A stretch of DNA of 64,000 nucleotides, from assembly GCA_031411095.1 (NCBI GenBank), contig JANOAK010000023.1, positions 13,896 to 77,895 of the forward strand, given 5' to 3'. Under the pieces are notes generated by a model. It saw only the letters and a program-made list of their open reading frames with translations. It had not been told where the DNA came from and did not search any database. The translations under genes were made by a program, and so were the position numbers. This document shows positions 27,495-63,792 of this stretch, in pieces (the stretch's first letter is position 1; the number at the start of each line of letters is the position of its first letter). Source of the stretch: Flavobacteriales bacterium. Lineage in GTDB: Bacteria; Bacteroidota; Bacteroidia; Flavobacteriales_F; PHOS-HE28.

Positions 27495-27890
27495 AACGTA
27501 GGGCCCATGTTCGGCCGCAGTGCGCTAATGTTGGCCAACAATCCCCCGATGTTGGGCAATATTCGGCTGATGTTGGAGAACAATGCCCCCATGTTGGTCA
27601 ACATTCCCCCGATGTTGGACAACAATGTCCTGATGTGGGCTAACATTCCGCTGATGTTCGGCAACAATGCCCTGGTGTTGGTCAACATTCCGCCGATGTT
27701 GGGCAACACTGCCCTGATGTGGGGCAACATTCCGCTGATGTCGGACAACGAGCCACCTATGTAGATCAACATTCCGCTGTTGTTGGACAACGATCCACCG
27801 ATGTGGGTCAACATTCCCCTGATGTTGGGCAACACTGCCCTGATGTGGGTCAACATCCCGCTGAAGTTGGACAACAAACCCCCAATGCCA
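27495..27890. repeat. 21-bp tandem repeat (~19 copies; consensus CAACA(A/T)TCCNCTGATGTTGGG) = heptad period
   Basis: Direct reading of the sequence. The minus-strand frame stays open through the whole array (ORF 27482..28153, LPNIGGM/LTNTRAL heptads). The plus-strand frame contains a stop at ~27762. Confidence 0.85.
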
Positions 27891-54337: not shown

Positions 54338-55177
54338 TCAAATGCTTTGACGTACGTGGTCTCGCAGGCATATGACTCCGCCCGTCGGCCCCATCGCGTT
54401 CATCCCGAAGTCCACCTTCAGCGCCCCGTCGTTGGTCACACGTTTCCGGTAGGTCGCCAATGTGCGCAAGGGTTCCTTTCCGCGTTGGCCGGTGAACTGG
54501 TCGGTGGTGGTGATCACGCAACGCGAACAGGGCTTCACCAAGGAGAAGCGCGTGTCCCCAATGGTGATCTCTTTCCAACCATCCTCTTGGAACGCATGCC
54601 CACCCGCGATCACGATGTTCGGACGGAAACGATCCATGGGGACATGTGCCCATGTGCCCATGTGCGCATGTGCCCATGTGGTGCCGCGCGCGTTCAGGTC
54701 ATCCAACGATGCCTGCGAGATGATCAAGTAGGGAAAGCCATCGCTCAGCGACGTGATGCCCGACGCATATTTCATGTCCACCGGGCGACGCGAGGCCTCG
54801 GGCATGTATACCAACCTGCAAGGAACGCGAAGTCGTTCCGCGAACCAGGCGGAGACCTCCTCCGCCGCGGGTAACACATACACCAGGTCACCCCAGACGT
54901 GTGCCCGGCGTTCTTCACCATCGGCGATGGACCAAGGCAGATCGAAGGTCGATCCATCGCGGATGTCCGTCACGCGGAAACCGTTCGATAGTGGCGAGCA
55001 GTGCAGGCAGGCCATGGTCGGTACTTCGCGTTGCGTGAGGAATTGATCGGGACCGGTCACCAGCATCCAGCGCCGGTCATGTTCGAAACCACGGTCGGTG
55101 AGGCGCGCTGCATCCACGGAAAAGCCGCCGAGCGACTTGATCGGATATACATGCAGGGACGCGACCGAAAGCTCCAT
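54338..55177 (-). CDS. MOSC-domain protein (MOSC_N beta-barrel + MOSC)
   Basis: LHVYPIKSLGG N-terminus. Conserved Cys in KPCSRCVITT. ATGA overlap with the upstream cytochrome gene stop. Confidence 0.8.
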   Translation of the reverse strand: MELSVASLHVYPIKSLGGFSVDAARLTDRGFEHDRRWMLVTGPDQFLTQREVPTMACLHCSPLSNGFRVTDIRDGSTFDLPWSIADGEERRAHVWGDLVYVLPAAEEVSAWFAERLRVPCRLVYMPEASRRPVDMKYASGITSLSDGFPYLIISQASLDDLNARGTTWAHAHMGTWAHVPMDRFRPNIVIAGGHAFQEDGWKEITIGDTRFSLVKPCSRCVITTTDQFTGQRGKEPLRTLATYRKRVTNDGALKVDFGMNAMGPTGGVICLRDHVRQSI

Positions 55178-61041: not shown

Positions 61042-61632
61042 TTAGGCCGTGTATAAGCCGTTCTGGCGGATGTACGCCAGCACTTCCGGCTTCACCAGCC
61101 CATCCAGGGGTTTCCAGTTCCTCAACCGCACGCGGATACCTGTGCTGCTCGTGTCCATCATCGGCGCATCCTGCACCAGCGTTACGGCGGGATGGTAGAG
61201 CATGTCGGCCCTGGCCAGGTGCTCCTCCAATCCGGGCCGCGGGTATACGAGCAGGGGATGATTGTCCACGATGGACTGCGGGTCCTTCCAGGTATGCAGG
61301 TCGGCCAGGTTGTCGCTGCCCACGATCAGGGAGAAGGTGTGCTGTGGCCAACGCTGGCGCATGAAGGCGAGCGTGTCGGTCGTGTAATTGGGTTTGGGCA
61401 GGTCGAGCTCGAATCCGCTGGCCACCAGGCCGGGCTCGCCGAGCACGGCGATGCGCGTCATGGCCAGCCGATGCTGTTCGGGACTCAGCTTGCGGTCCTG
61501 CTTGAAGGGATTCTGGGGGGTCACCACCAACCAGACCTGGTCGAGCTTGGCCGCCTTGAGCATATGCTTGGCAATGGCCACGTGCCCCATATGCGGGGGA
61601 TCGAAGGAACCGAAGAGACAGCCGATGTTCAT
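61042..61632 (-). CDS. nadD: Nicotinate-nucleotide adenylyltransferase
   Basis: GSFDPPHMGH (HxGH) motif and ...TSSTGIR... ISSTxxR motif. Confidence 0.85.
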   Translation of the reverse strand: MNIGCLFGSFDPPHMGHVAIAKHMLKAAKLDQVWLVVTPQNPFKQDRKLSPEQHRLAMTRIAVLGEPGLVASGFELDLPKPNYTTDTLAFMRQRWPQHTFSLIVGSDNLADLHTWKDPQSIVDNHPLLVYPRPGLEEHLARADMLYHPAVTLVQDAPMMDTSSTGIRVRLRNWKPLDGLVKPEVLAYIRQNGLYTA

Positions 61633-62300
61633 GACGTGCGGAGCGGGGTGTCGGGCGCAAGTGAACTTGCGAGGAACGTGCGCACCAGCTTTGACGCCTC
61701 GCGGCAGGCGCGGTCACGGTCGTCGTTCACTATCACCGCGTCGAAACGGTCCTGGAAGGTCATTTCATGGGCCGCTTTATCGATGCGCATCCGCAGGCTC
61801 TCCACGGTCTCGGTTTTGCGCCCGTACAGCCGGAGCTCCAGTGCATCGAGGGAGGGTGGCGCCACGAAGAGCGCCAGCGCATTGGTCTGGTACACCTCCT
61901 TCAGGTCCAGCCCGCCCACCACATCCACATCGAAAATGGCGTGGTGACCGTTGGACCAGATGCGATCCAGTTCGCTGCGCAGGGTGCCGTAGAACCGACC
62001 CGGATACACCTCCTCATACTCGACGAATTCGCCGGCGGCGATGCGGGACTTGAACTCCTCCACGGACAGGAAGTGGTAATCCTTTCCATCCACCTCGTTG
62101 GCGCGCATGGGCCTGCTGGTGGCGCTCACGCTGAACTCCAGGCCGATGTCCAACGACAGCAGGTGATGCACAATGGTCGTCTTGCCGGCACCACTGGGTG
62201 CTGAAACGATGATGCTTTTACCGGTGGCGATGGTCACGATGCGATGGTCCTGCGATGGAGGCCCCGGGGTCGGAGGCTTTGCGGGCGCAAAGGAATGCAC
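61629..62300 (-). CDS. gmk: Guanylate kinase
   Basis: P-loop SAPSGAGKTT and GMP-binding SATSR...YHF region. ATGA overlap with nadD. Start may be the GTG at 62237. Confidence 0.85.
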   Translation of the reverse strand: MHSFAPAKPPTPGPPSQDHRIVTIATGKSIIVSAPSGAGKTTIVHHLLSLDIGLEFSVSATSRPMRANEVDGKDYHFLSVEEFKSRIAAGEFVEYEEVYPGRFYGTLRSELDRIWSNGHHAIFDVDVVGGLDLKEVYQTNALALFVAPPSLDALELRLYGRKTETVESLRMRIDKAAHEMTFQDRFDAVIVNDDRDRACREASKLVRTFLASSLAPDTPLRTS

Positions 62301-62389
62301 TTCCGCGCTCGCTGCGAACGAAGAGATGCAACGAATGTGAACGCAGCGTTAACGGGGCGCAGATTACCATGCATCCGGTAACGCGATAC

Positions 62390-62900
62390 CCACCGCCTCC
62401 GGCGGCCTTCATGGCTTATTAACCACAGATGACACGGATGGATGCAGCTCCGCGGCGTCCGCGTCCCGCGTGATGTATAACCAACACCGCCTCCGGCGGT
62501 CTTCAATGCTTTTCAACCACAGATGGACACGGATGAACACAGATGAATGCAGAACCTGACCTCCTTCGTGGCCTCCGTGCCTCTGTGTGACGCCTGGCAC
62601 CTCCTTCGCGCTCTTTGCGGTAAAACCCCTTCTGCGCGCCCGCCTCCGGCGGCCTTCATGGCTTTTTTAACCGCAGATGACGCAGATGAATGGAGCAAGG
62701 CCCGCGTGAGGCTCCTTCAACGCTTTTTCAACCGCAGATGACACAGATGACGCAGATGGAAGCAAACGCTGACCTCCTCTGTGGCCTCCGTGCCACTATG
62801 TGATGCCTGGCACTCCCTTCGCGCCCTCTGCGTGCTCTGCGCCCCTCGCCTGCGCGGAAGCCGCTTCGGCGGGCGCAGGTCTGCGTGAGGCTCTGGTCAC
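62390..62900. repeat. Composite intergenic repeat region (two or three copies of a ~60-130-bp element plus nested sub-repeats CAGATGA(C)AC)
   Basis: Copies at ~62391-62447, ~62486-62620 and ~62639-62832, each starting with the hairpin CCGCCTCCGGCGG + TTCATGGCTTTT. The TGACCTCCT..GTGGCCTCCGTGCC..GCCTGGCAC..TTCGCGC block occurs twice. Confidence 0.75.
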
Positions 62901-62901
62901 C

Positions 62902-63792
62902 TCACAGCACGTTCAGCACCTGCTCCTTGATCTTCTCCAGTTCATCCTTCATCAACACCACATTGCGTTGCATGATCGCATCGTTGGCCTTGCTGCCCAG
63001 CGTGTTGATCTCGCGCCCCATCTCCTGCGTGATGAATCCGAGCTTACGGCCCTGTTGCTCTTCTTTTTCCAGCGTTTCGCGGAAGTAGGCGCAATGCGTG
63101 CGCAGCCGCACCTTCTCCTCGTTGATGTCCATCTTCTCCAGGTAGAACACCAGCTCCTGCTCAAAGCGGTCCTGGTCCACCTTGGCCTGCAGTTCCGCCA
63201 GGCGGCCTTGGATGCGCTCGCGCGTACGTTCGGCGCGACCGCTGTCCTGCGCGTCCACTTCATTCAGCAGGGACTCAATGCGATCGCAGCGCATGCGCAG
63301 GTCATCATGCAGTTTGCGGCCTTCCGCCTCGCGGAAGGACTGGTAGGCCTTCAGGGCTTCCTTCACCAGTGCATGCACGCCCTTCCATTCCAACTCGCCG
63401 AGGCTTTCGTTGGCGCTGCCGGTGACCTCGGGCATGCGCAGCACCAGTCCCATCAGGTCGGTCTGCGCATTGGGATCCACGGCCTGGGTCACGGCGAGGA
63501 GCTCGTCGTACATGGCCTTCACCAAGGCCGTATCGTAGCTGCCACGTCGCGTGCCGGGGGCCAGTTCGCTCTGCACGCTCACCTCGGCCTTGCCGCGCAT
63601 CACCGTTTCGCTCACCAGTTGTCGCAATTCGGTGTCCTTCTCCTTGTACAGGCTGGGCAGCTTGATGAAAAGGTCGAGCTGTTTGCTGTTCAGCGAGCGC
63701 ACTTCCACCGTGACCTTCTTGGCCGCAGTATTGGGGGTGCCCGGGTCGACCAGGCCTTCGGCGCGGCCGAAGCCGGTCATGGAGCGGAGCAT
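62902..63792 (-). CDS. yicC: YicC-family stress-induced protein (DUF1732)
   Basis: MLRSMTGFGRAEG...N-terminus and YicC C-terminal domain. Classic yicC-gmk neighbourhood. Confidence 0.8.
   Translation of the reverse strand: MLRSMTGFGRAEGLVDPGTPNTAAKKVTVEVRSLNSKQLDLFIKLPSLYKEKDTELRQLVSETVMRGKAEVSVQSELAPGTRRGSYDTALVKAMYDELLAVTQAVDPNAQTDLMGLVLRMPEVTGSANESLGELEWKGVHALVKEALKAYQSFREAEGRKLHDDLRMRCDRIESLLNEVDAQDSGRAERTRERIQGRLAELQAKVDQDRFEQELVFYLEKMDINEEKVRLRTHCAYFRETLEKEEQQGRKLGFITQEMGREINTLGSKANDAIMQRNVVLMKDELEKIKEQVLNVL

What the first reader, a model, noticed from the sequence alone, without database searches (positions are those of the whole stretch)
62300..62902. ~600-bp composite repeat region inserted between yicC and gmk
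yicC and gmk are normally adjacent. Here they are split by nested repeats. The ~60-130-bp units each begin with a GC hairpin (CCGCCTCCGGCGG) followed by a T-run. They contain internal CAGATGA(C)AC sub-repeats and a second conserved block with the GTGCC...GGCAC stem. The region may be a family of small RNAs, a REP/MITE-like element, or a terminator/attenuator array.
Basis: seen in the sequence. Interest (0 to 1): 0.55.

Follow-up and report, generated by a model that had tools for sequence, protein, structure and literature searches.

The report
Strain-variable intergenic repeat cluster, yicC–gmk
The 660-base gap between yicC and gmk in this uncultured Flavobacteriales genome holds four tandem copies of a non-coding repeat unit whose number changes between close relatives, and each unit is built around a 30-base "three-decamer" element that also occurs in phages, Verrucomicrobia, cyanobacteria and proteobacteria and matched no Rfam family or searchable paper.

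Summary
The yicC–gmk spacer (62238-62901) holds four tandem units, S1-L1-S2-L2. The hairpin and AACCRCAGATG motifs occur nowhere else in the 64 kb window.

It is not an sRNA family or a terminator array. There is no Rfam match, no U-tract directly after a stem, and no folding or covariation signal. The spacer ORF tested has no homologues.

The array is lineage-specific and unstable. Relatives with 91-100% identical Gmk carry 0, 1, 2 or 4 units. More distant relatives have 123-nt or 2-nt spacers.

The "CAGATGA" sub-repeats are copies of a 30-nt element, (ATCTGYGTYC)x3 ending in GGTT-AA. I found it in 57 IMG/VR stretches, a Pedosphaera prophage, and cyanobacterial, Skermanella and Thiodictyon plasmids. 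A model built from the viral copies hits only these four sites in the window (E 8.5e-13 to 1e-4).

Elsewhere the element never has more than three repeats. About 40% of copies have an inverted partner, almost always on the same side. It sits at gene junctions and is more conserved than its flanks.

My best reading is a REP/BIME- or MITE-like repeat cluster that grew by local duplication around one seeded copy. The function of the element family is unknown.

The parts
62902..63792 (-). yicC (YicC/YloC family), the upstream flanking gene. Its stop codon is at 62902-62904.
   Evidence: ORF. The identical protein carries PF03755 and PF08340. Homologues are named YicC family / endoribonuclease from Flavobacteriales MAGs.
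61629..62237 (-). gmk (guanylate kinase, 202 aa, GTG start), the downstream flanking gene. nadD follows at 61042-61632.
   Evidence: Called gene with PF00625 on the identical contig L003. Homologues.
62238..62390 (-). Non-repeat segment next to gmk, conserved in all close relatives. Probably the gmk promoter or leader (inferred). It contains a conserved hairpin GTTACC-N8-GGTAAT at 62363-62382.
   Evidence: Alignments and sequences of the window, L005, L083, L084, L085 and L086. This segment is kept even in L085, which has no repeat units.
62391..62484 (.). Unit S1 (94 nt): GC hairpin, CTTCAnnGCTT, T-run, AACC, two 9-nt CAGATGA-type repeats, then a CG-rich degenerate opposing arm.
   Evidence: folds as an imperfect hairpin, z = -0.5.
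62485..62637 (.). Unit L1 (153 nt): the same head, a canonical three-decamer element, an opposing arm of CCTCYKYG repeats (62560-62591), and the GTGCC...GGCAC / CTCCTTCGCGCTCTTTGCGGTAAAA tail.
   Evidence: (z = -2.0 on the + strand).
62638..62699 (.). Unit S2 (62 nt): hairpin, T-run, AACC and two nonamers. Three other assemblies of the same species have three nonamers here.
   Evidence: 9-nt indel.
62700..62849 (.). Unit L2 (~150 nt): degenerate head with no hairpin, three nonamers, an opposing arm at 62773-62804, and a tail.
   Evidence: Five SNPs relative to L088/L089 cluster in the opposing arm.
62509..62547 (-). Canonical copy of the three-decamer element: TTCATCTGTGTTCATCCGTGTCCATCTGTGGTTGAAAAG.
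   Evidence: Model R1, built from 72 viral-contig copies, scores 44.5 bits, E = 8.5e-13.
62724..62761 (-). Degenerate copy with three 9-nt repeats, followed by GGTTGAAAAA.
   Evidence: R1: 25.0 bits, E = 1.1e-6.
62663..62690 (-). Degenerate copy with two 9-nt repeats, followed by GGTTAAAAAA.
   Evidence: R1: 20.8 bits, E = 2.3e-5.
62416..62442 (-). Degenerate copy with two 9-nt repeats, followed by GGTTAATAA.
   Evidence: R1: 18.6 bits, E = 1.1e-4.
62393..62405 (.). GC hairpin CCGCC-TCC-GGCGG. Identical copies lie at 62487-62499 and 62640-62652.
   Evidence: The same hairpin follows the element in L005, L083, L084 and L086.
62850..62878 (.). GC-rich hairpin CTGCGCGGAAGCCGCTTCGGCGGGCGCAG, about 25 nt after the yicC stop. 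Short-read contigs break inside it.
   Evidence: Paired in both minimum-free-energy folds. L001 and L002 end and L003 starts at 62860-62864.

Best explanation
The region is non-coding repeat DNA of the REP/BIME or MITE kind, not an RNA gene family or a terminator array.

One copy of a widespread 30-nt element, (ATCTGYGTYC)x3 ending in GGTT and followed by AA, became established in the yicC–gmk spacer of one genus-level Flavobacteriales lineage. There it is fused to a local GC hairpin (CCGCCGGAGGCGG).

The resulting 60-150-nt composite unit was then multiplied and trimmed in place. The mechanisms would be unequal recombination or replication slippage between its own direct repeats, plus gene conversion between units. 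This produced arrays of 0 to 4 units in different strains, and S1-L1-S2-L2 here.

Shown:
- The repeats exist.
- They belong to the element family.
- They are confined to this lineage.
- Copy number varies, there is a 9-nt slippage polymorphism, and there is a higher-order duplication.

Inferred:
- How the first copy arrived. I favour a transposition-like or recombinational spread of the 30-nt element by an unidentified trans-acting protein.
- That the array is dispensable.
- That its main effect on the cell is to place imperfect hairpins in any yicC read-through transcript, while gmk is driven from its own conserved proximal region.
For: Family membership. A sequence-only model built from 72 viral-contig copies hits the window only at the four units, all on the gene-sense strand, with E from 8.5e-13 to 1.1e-4.

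The family is real.
- There are 57 IMG/VR stretches with 85 matches to a 30-nt pattern.
- Positions left free in that pattern are still about 95% T.
- No copy has more than three repeats among 126 anchors.
- The variable Y is the same in all three repeats of a copy: CCC in 37, TTT in 35, mixed in 13.
- The nine canonical inverted pairs all have the same polarity.
- 29 of 73 copies have an inverted partner within 150 nt on the 5' side, against 2 on the 3' side.

Hosts span phyla: a Pedosphaera parvula prophage, and Dolichospermum, Sphaerospermopsis, Aulosira, Skermanella and Thiodictyon plasmids.

Lineage restriction and instability.
- 4 units in five assemblies with 100% identical Gmk.
- 1 unit in L005 and L083 (Gmk 94% in L083; YicC 96% in L005).
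- 2 units at 92%.
- 0 units at 91%.
- Spacers of 123 nt and 2 nt in relatives with 77% and 75% YicC identity.
- Within the species there is a 9-nt indel and a cluster of 5 SNPs that makes L2 resemble L1.
- The S-L super-unit is duplicated at 71% identity.

Non-coding. The 64-aa ORF that I tested across the repeats has no homologue among 5.8 billion proteins other than itself.
Against: No second locus with the composite unit was found. I checked the window, about 100 kb of related contigs, 185,579 species genomes and JGI metagenomes. The pattern used for the two large scans was strict, and it would have missed even the relatives' own units.

No target-site duplication is visible at the nine well-formed pairs.

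No empty site was found among homologous phage loci.

No transposase or RAYT gene is linked to the element.

In five related phages the two arms are about 97-100% conserved while the alignment as a whole averages 76% column identity. That points to function or homogenisation rather than junk.

Near-identical 30-mers across phyla are unusual for REPs or MITE termini.
Confidence: 0.55

Rival explanations
1. The three-decamer element is a functional cis-element, and the array gives yicC–gmk several copies of it. It could be a phased binding site for an oligomeric DNA- or RNA-binding protein. It could also be an intercistronic hairpin or processing signal that separates the stability or translation of neighbouring genes, as the RNase III sites of phage T7 do.
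For: - The 10-nt period equals one helical turn, and there are never more than three repeats.
- The linker positions are pyrimidines on one strand only, and they are not kept complementary between paired arms.
- In five diverged phages the arms are about 97-100% conserved against 76% mean column identity for the whole alignment.
- In phage late operons with Mu-like portal, protease and capsid genes, the pairs fill the gap between one gene's stop and the next gene's start.
- GGTT-A-run-ATG spacing of 5-14 nt is common.
- In the other orientation, the TAA of TAACC is often the upstream stop, and the element's ATG is in frame with the downstream gene in two related phages.
- The canonical copy is 29/30 identical between the window and L084, although the surrounding spacer differs.
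Against: - A relative with 91% identical Gmk has no unit at all, and more distant relatives have none, so the array is dispensable at this locus.
- Orientation relative to genes is only weakly biased: 19 antisense against 10 sense among solo copies between co-directional genes, from a crude gene map.
- The family is rare and patchy: 57 stretches in 2.9 million viral contigs, none in 50,697 GenBank phage records, 5 of 72,556 plasmids.
- No partner protein is known.
Confidence: 0.25
2. The units form an array of intrinsic terminators or attenuators acting between yicC and gmk, or on antisense transcription.
For: Each of three units has a 5-bp all-GC hairpin, with a T-rich stretch downstream on the + strand. 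The scan flags one hairpin on the minus strand in two overlapping registers.
Against: - The scan finds 2 sites against 2.0 expected from shuffles, and none on the + strand.
- The T-run starts about 9 nt after the stem.
- No + strand gene upstream needs terminating.
- Across the wider family the element is flanked by a T-run on the 5' side and an A-run on the 3' side on both strands, which is the reverse of a terminator.
Confidence: 0.07
3. The units are tandem genes for small RNAs or another structured non-coding RNA.
For: The long units fold into extended imperfect hairpins, and L1 on the + strand has z = -2.0. The purine-rich strand carries many GGA/AGGAGG-like motifs, including perfect AAGGAGGTG.
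Against: - No Rfam family matches.
- Whole-region z-scores are -0.9 and -1.15.
- The alignment of six hairpin units has a covariation term of -0.22 and one compensatory pair.
- No sigma-70-like promoter was found.
- Copy number ranges from 0 to 4 among close relatives.
Confidence: 0.06
4. The region is purely local duplication debris with no relation to anything elsewhere.
For: The composite unit was found at no other locus. The array clearly grew by local duplication.
Against: The core of every unit matches a model trained only on unrelated viral contigs, at E down to 8.5e-13. A phage intergenic region uses the same set of short modules: CTCACGCGGAG, GCGCAGAGG and AACC-(CAGAT)x3.
Confidence: 0.05

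Closest known systems
REP / BIME clusters and REPINs of Proteobacteria (Bertels & Rainey 2011, PMC3116915)
   Same: Both are short extragenic repeats. Both occur as inverted doublets of fixed polarity alongside many singlets. Both form mosaic clusters between genes of one operon, vary between strains and can form hairpins.
   Different: A REP is itself a palindrome with a conserved GTAG head, is species-specific and occurs in hundreds of copies. Here each arm is three direct decamers. The same 30-mer recurs across phyla. Only one locus was seen in 64 kb. No RAYT gene was identified.
MITEs such as Correia elements (Neisseria) and RUP (own knowledge)
   Same: The well-formed pairs elsewhere are 76-110 bp with about 30-nt terminal inverted repeats, they are intergenic, and they are sometimes co-opted for start or stop signals.
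   Different: No target-site duplication, no empty sites and no parent transposon were found. In the window the opposing arms are degenerate, and growth was by tandem duplication.
BOX elements of Streptococcus pneumoniae (own knowledge)
   Same: Both are modular composites of short boxes in which one module is repeated a variable number of times, and both lie between genes.
   Different: The sequences are unrelated. BOX elements are dispersed in more than 100 copies per genome.
Cyanobacterial small dispersed repeats (SDR) and STRR heptamer repeats (Elhai et al. 2008, cited in PMC3116915 and PMC4390886; paper not held, details from memory)
   Same: Both are very small (21-30 nt) repeats, nested or clustered in intergenic DNA, with no recognised transposase. 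The present family also occurs on Nostocales plasmids.
   Different: I could not compare the sequences. SDRs were described only in Nostocales.
RNase III processing hairpins between phage T7 genes (own knowledge)
   Same: Both are conserved long stem-loops placed between cistrons of phage operons.
   Different: This is an analogy of position only. Solo copies cannot form the stem, and no cleavage data exist.

Membership tests
Three-decamer/GGTT repeat family (defined here from IMG/VR contigs) | Three direct ~10-nt repeats ATCTGYGTYC, the last ending in GGTT, followed by AA and an A/T-rich stretch | tested here: met
   62509-62547 scores 44.5 bits, E = 8.5e-13. The other three copies are shortened (9-nt period, 2-3 repeats), with E from 1e-6 to 1e-4.
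Three-decamer/GGTT repeat family (defined here from IMG/VR contigs) | Inverted partner arm 16-50 nt away on the 5' side (seen for about 40% of members) | tested here: inconclusive
   Only weak partner arms are present: alignment scores of 17-18 upstream against 12-15 downstream. L1 and L2 do fold with CCTCYKYG arms.
REP/BIME (REPIN) | The unit is a short imperfect palindrome with a conserved 5' tetranucleotide | tested here: not met
   The conserved 30-mer is three direct repeats, not a palindrome.
REP/BIME (REPIN) | Many dispersed extragenic copies in the same genome | tested here: inconclusive
   There is no other copy in the 64 kb window or in the related contigs fetched for comparison. The rest of the genome was not available.
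REP/BIME (REPIN) | An associated RAYT (Y1 transposase) gene | not testable with these tools
MITE | Terminal inverted repeats flanked by a target-site duplication | tested here: not met
   The nine clean pairs have 30-nt inverted arms but no direct duplication outside them. The arms in the window are degenerate.
MITE | Presence/absence polymorphism at orthologous sites (empty sites) | tested here: inconclusive
   No empty site was found among homologous phage loci, but those loci were collected because they contain the element. At yicC–gmk the unit number varies from 0 to 4, but the flanks are too diverged to define insertion boundaries.
Intrinsic terminator | GC-rich stem followed directly by a U-tract | tested here: not met
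   2 sites found against 2.0 expected. The T-run lies 9 nt from the stem.
Any Rfam 15 RNA family | Covariance-model score at or above the gathering threshold | tested here: not met
   No hits in the window. Only noise at E of 4 or more in the region. No hits in 14 family loci.
CRISPR array | Constant repeats at a regular period, separated by unique spacers | tested here: not met
   Spacing is irregular (94, 153, 62 nt), and the 'spacers' are themselves repeated.
Cyanobacterial SDR families | Sequence identity to one of SDR1-8 | not testable with these tools
   Elhai 2008 (PMC2527708) is not held.

The most novel reading that the evidence does not exclude
The 30-nt three-decamer element is a functional signal conserved across phyla, which phages and bacteria place at gene junctions and which an as yet unknown, patchily distributed factor recognises. 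That factor could be a phased DNA or RNA binder, or a processing enzyme. On this reading the element is a new kind of gene punctuation or recombination linker, and the yicC–gmk array is a local amplification of it.
Probability: 0.2. Interest if true: 0.75.

Novelty: new variant of a known kind. Interest (0 to 1): 0.5.

Why it matters
The locus on its own is ordinary: a strain-variable repeat cluster in a spacer that can tolerate it. It is useful mainly as a strain marker and as a cause of assembly breaks.

The more interesting result is what the sub-repeats turned out to be. They belong to a sharply defined 30-nt element that recurs in Bacteroidota, Verrucomicrobiota, Cyanobacteriota, Alpha- and Gammaproteobacteria and uncultured phages. 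Three properties make it stand out:
- It never exceeds three repeats.
- Its inverted pairs have a fixed polarity.
- Its arms are more conserved than the neighbouring sequence.

It matches no Rfam family, and its sequence appears in none of about 8 million searchable papers. If it has a function or a dedicated mobilising enzyme, that would be a new small genetic element shared by phages and hosts across phyla.

Tried and rejected
- **Coding.** The 64-aa spacer ORF that I tested has no homologue. The other spacer ORFs were not searched.
- **Sigma-54 promoter (TGGCAC-N5-TCGC) in the long units.** There are only two matches and they are copies of each other. Chance expectation is 0.74, and the motif is not kept in L005.
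- **Consensus RNA-polymerase pause (G-10, TGYG; consensus recalled from memory, PMC6336406 gives no sequence).** The decamer fits it, but most solo copies in phages lie antisense to the genes.
- **DnaA box.** The Thiodictyon copy starts TTATCCACA, but half of all copies have CCGCA instead of CCACA.
- **Mimic of 16S rRNA helix 45 and the anti-SD tail (CTGCGGTT, CACCTCCTT).** This rests on recalled similarity only. The Rfam search of the region gave no SSU hit.
- **CsrA-type GGA sponge.** Only about a quarter of the decamers contain GGA.
- **Integron attC and CRISPR.** The architecture does not fit.
- **Whole-collection scans.** The unit pattern gave one chance hit each in genomes and metagenomes. 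The composite pattern gave no hits in viral contigs.
- **Empty-site search.** It found none.
- **Literature.** Searches for the sequence strings and for Pedosphaera repeats found nothing.
Full report
**Setting.** The window has 60% G+C. The genes at its right end all lie on the minus strand: yicC at 62902-63792, gmk at 61629-62237 and nadD at 61042-61632. The best YicC and Gmk homologues come from uncultured Flavobacteriales MAGs. The finding therefore covers the 664-nt yicC–gmk spacer, 62238-62901.

- The hairpin CCGCCTCCGGCGG occurs exactly three times, all in the spacer. With one mismatch allowed there are 4 matches in the window against 0.24 expected, and 0 of 100 shuffles reach four.
- AACCRCAGATG occurs four times, only here, against 0.12 expected.
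- The repeat finder returns a 41-nt head with four copies (spacing 94, 153, 62) and an 83-nt block with two copies at 82% identity.
- Tandem Repeats Finder finds the 9-10-nt CAGATGA repeats.
- A self-BLAST shows that 62393-62619 and 62640-62832 are 71% identical.
- The array is thus a duplicated pair of a short and a long unit: S1 (62391-62484), L1 (62485-62637), S2 (62638-62699) and L2 (62700 to about 62849).
- The same sequence is present in four independent assemblies. Short-read contigs break in a GC hairpin at 62850-62878, not in the array itself.

**What it is not.**
- No Rfam family matches the window at gathering score, and only noise appears at E up to 10.
- The whole spacer folds no better than shuffled sequence on either strand, with z of -1.15 and -0.92.
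- Of eight unit folds, only L1 on the + strand reaches z = -2.0.
- An alignment of six long-unit hairpins from the lineage has a covariation term of -0.22 and a single compensatory pair.
- The promoter and terminator scans find no promoter-like sites and 2 terminator-like sites against 2.0 expected. None is on the + strand, where the T-runs lie about 9 nt from the stems.
- The 64-aa ORF that one gene caller placed in the repeats has no relative among 5.8 billion proteins.
- A sigma-54-like TGGCAC-N5-TCGC in both long units is within chance and is not conserved.

**The array is lineage-specific and unstable.** I retrieved the same locus from relatives, using the YicC and Gmk proteins.

| Locus | Identity to window | Units | Spacer |
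|---|---|---|---|
| window, L003, L087, L088, L089 | Gmk 100% | 4 | 664-673 nt |
| L005, L083 | YicC 96% (L005), Gmk 94% (L083) | 1, plus an unrelated 41-nt x3.5 array | about 510 nt |
| L084, L086 | Gmk 92% | 2 | 443 nt in L086 |
| L085 | Gmk 91% | 0 | 259 nt |
| L006 | YicC 77% | 0 | 123 nt |
| L008 | YicC 75% | 0 | 2 nt |

- Within the species, S2 has two nonamers in the window and three in L087-L089.
- Five SNPs cluster in the L2 arm and make the other assemblies' L2 resemble L1. This is the pattern expected from slippage and gene conversion.
- In all close relatives, including L085, the ~150 nt next to gmk are conserved, with a hairpin GTTACC-N8-GGTAAT. I take this segment to be the gmk promoter or leader, which is an inference.

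**The sub-repeats belong to a widespread element.**
- A loose pattern taken from the sub-repeats found 25 IMG/VR stretches.
- A 30-nt pattern for three decamers found 57 stretches and 85 matches.
- Aligned copies give the consensus nATCTGYGTYC ATCTGYGTYC ATCTGYGGTT AA, followed by A/T.
- Positions left free in the pattern are T in 71-75 of 76 copies, and the 5' flank is pyrimidine-rich and G-poor.
- Among 126 anchors there are never more than three repeats.
- The Y in TGYG is the same in all three repeats of a copy: CCC in 37, TTT in 35, mixed in 13.
- All nine canonical pairs have the AACC...GGTT ends outermost, with 16-50 nt between the arms.
- 29 of 73 copies have an inverted partner within 150 nt on the 5' side, against 2 on the 3' side.
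- A sequence-only model built from 72 of these copies hits the window only at 62509-62547 (E = 8.5e-13), 62724-62761 (1.1e-6), 62663-62690 (2.3e-5) and 62416-62442 (1.1e-4). All four are on the gene-sense strand. The model also hits the corresponding sites of the relatives.
- L1 therefore carries a canonical copy, and the other three units carry shortened ones with a 9-nt period.

**Distribution and context of the family.**
- One viral contig is a prophage of Pedosphaera parvula Ellin514.
- Plasmid searches add Dolichospermum, Sphaerospermopsis and Aulosira (cyanobacteria), Skermanella (Alphaproteobacteria) and Candidatus Thiodictyon (Gammaproteobacteria). The two bases before CCACAGAT differ between these hosts.
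- None of 50,697 GenBank phage records has a copy.
- In phage late operons with Mu-like portal, protease, MuF and capsid genes, the pairs fill the gap between one gene's stop and the next gene's start.
- In one orientation, GGTT-A-run-ATG spacing of 5-14 nt is common.
- In the other orientation, the TAA of TAACC is often the upstream stop, and in two related phages the element's ATG is in frame with the conserved downstream protein.
- Orientation relative to genes is only mildly biased.
- In five diverged phages the arms are about 97-100% conserved, while the alignment as a whole averages 76% column identity. The linker mismatches between the arms are kept rather than repaired.
- A 560-nt phage intergenic region (L055) is built from the same set of modules as the window and L005: CTCACGCGGAG, GCGCAGAGG, CACGAAAG and AACC-(CAGAT)x3.
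- No Rfam family matches 14 such loci, and no searchable paper contains the sequences.

**Interpretation.** The local evidence is tandem segmental duplication, copy-number change between strains, slippage, conversion and dispensability. This points to non-coding repeat DNA that expanded in a permissive spacer around one seeded copy of the element. It resembles a BIME or BOX cluster.

How the element spreads and whether it has a function remain open. Patchy occurrence across phyla, doublets with singlets, and intergenic location all favour a REPIN/MITE-like mobile origin. However, there is no target duplication, no empty site and no linked transposase.

The strict three-repeat limit, the helical period, the strand-specific linkers and the strong conservation in phages favour a recognised cis-element. 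I give 0.55 to the repeat-cluster reading and 0.25 to a functional site or hairpin. The terminator, sRNA and pure-debris readings get small weights.

**Limits.** I therefore could not establish the genome-wide copy number in this organism. The gene maps used for the orientation statistics are crude. The pause-consensus, DnaA-box, 16S helix-45 and CsrA comparisons rest on recalled consensus sequences, and I rejected or set all of them aside.

Noticed in passing
window 27523-27877: A 355-nt tandem array with periods of 21, 42 and 126 nt (16.9 copies of ATGTTGGACAACAATCCCCTG, containing the palindrome TGTTGGnCAACA). It lies inside long ORFs on both strands. The minus-strand ORF reads as heptad repeats, (S/G)GML(T/S)NI.
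   Followed up: partly
window 54643-54680: An 8-nt tandem repeat, CATGTGCC x4.8, apparently inside a coding region.
   Followed up: no
window 62363-62382: A hairpin GTTACC-N8-GGTAAT at the boundary between the variable array and the conserved gmk-proximal segment. The stem is kept in L005, L083, L084, L085 and L086, while the loop differs in L085.
   Followed up: partly
window 62598-62606 and 62559-62567: On the gene-sense strand the long unit L1 carries a perfect Shine-Dalgarno-like AAGGAGGTG and GAAGGAGGT, so the + strand reads CACCTCCTT, the 16S 3' tail. This is unusual for a Bacteroidota genome. The element's terminal stem AACCGCAG/CTGCGGTT also resembles 16S helix 45 as I recall it. Neither was tested beyond the absence of an Rfam SSU hit.
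   Followed up: partly
window 62850-62878; L001 and L002 ends, L003 start: Logan short-read contigs from two samples all break inside the palindromic GC hairpin just after yicC, not in the repeat array.
   Followed up: yes
L005 10926-11071 and L083 2500-2680: In the L005/L083 relatives the distal part of the spacer is replaced by a different array of 41-nt units, x3.5 (GCGCGAAGGGAATGCGGGGGCCTCACGCGGAGA...), plus an ACC-(GCAACG)n module.
   Followed up: partly
L055 1413-1976: A 560-nt intergenic region in a phage contig is assembled from the same short modules as the window's spacer (CTCACGCGGAG, GCGCAGAGG/GCGCGGAGA, CACGAAAG, three-decamer elements). This suggests a shared vocabulary of related 8-10-nt repeats of the form CRCRRANR.
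   Followed up: partly
L093 10000-10165 (Ca. Thiodictyon syntrophicum plasmid pTs485): Here the element's outer end reads TTATCCACAGATG..., which is a perfect E. coli-type DnaA box (TTATCCACA), and the left arm overlaps the annotated end of an alpha/beta hydrolase gene.
   Followed up: partly
L090 1499-1533 (Dolichospermum plasmid pUHCC0315c): A three-decamer copy lies inside an annotated 'cupin domain-containing protein' CDS. This may be a mis-annotated or disrupted gene end.
   Followed up: no
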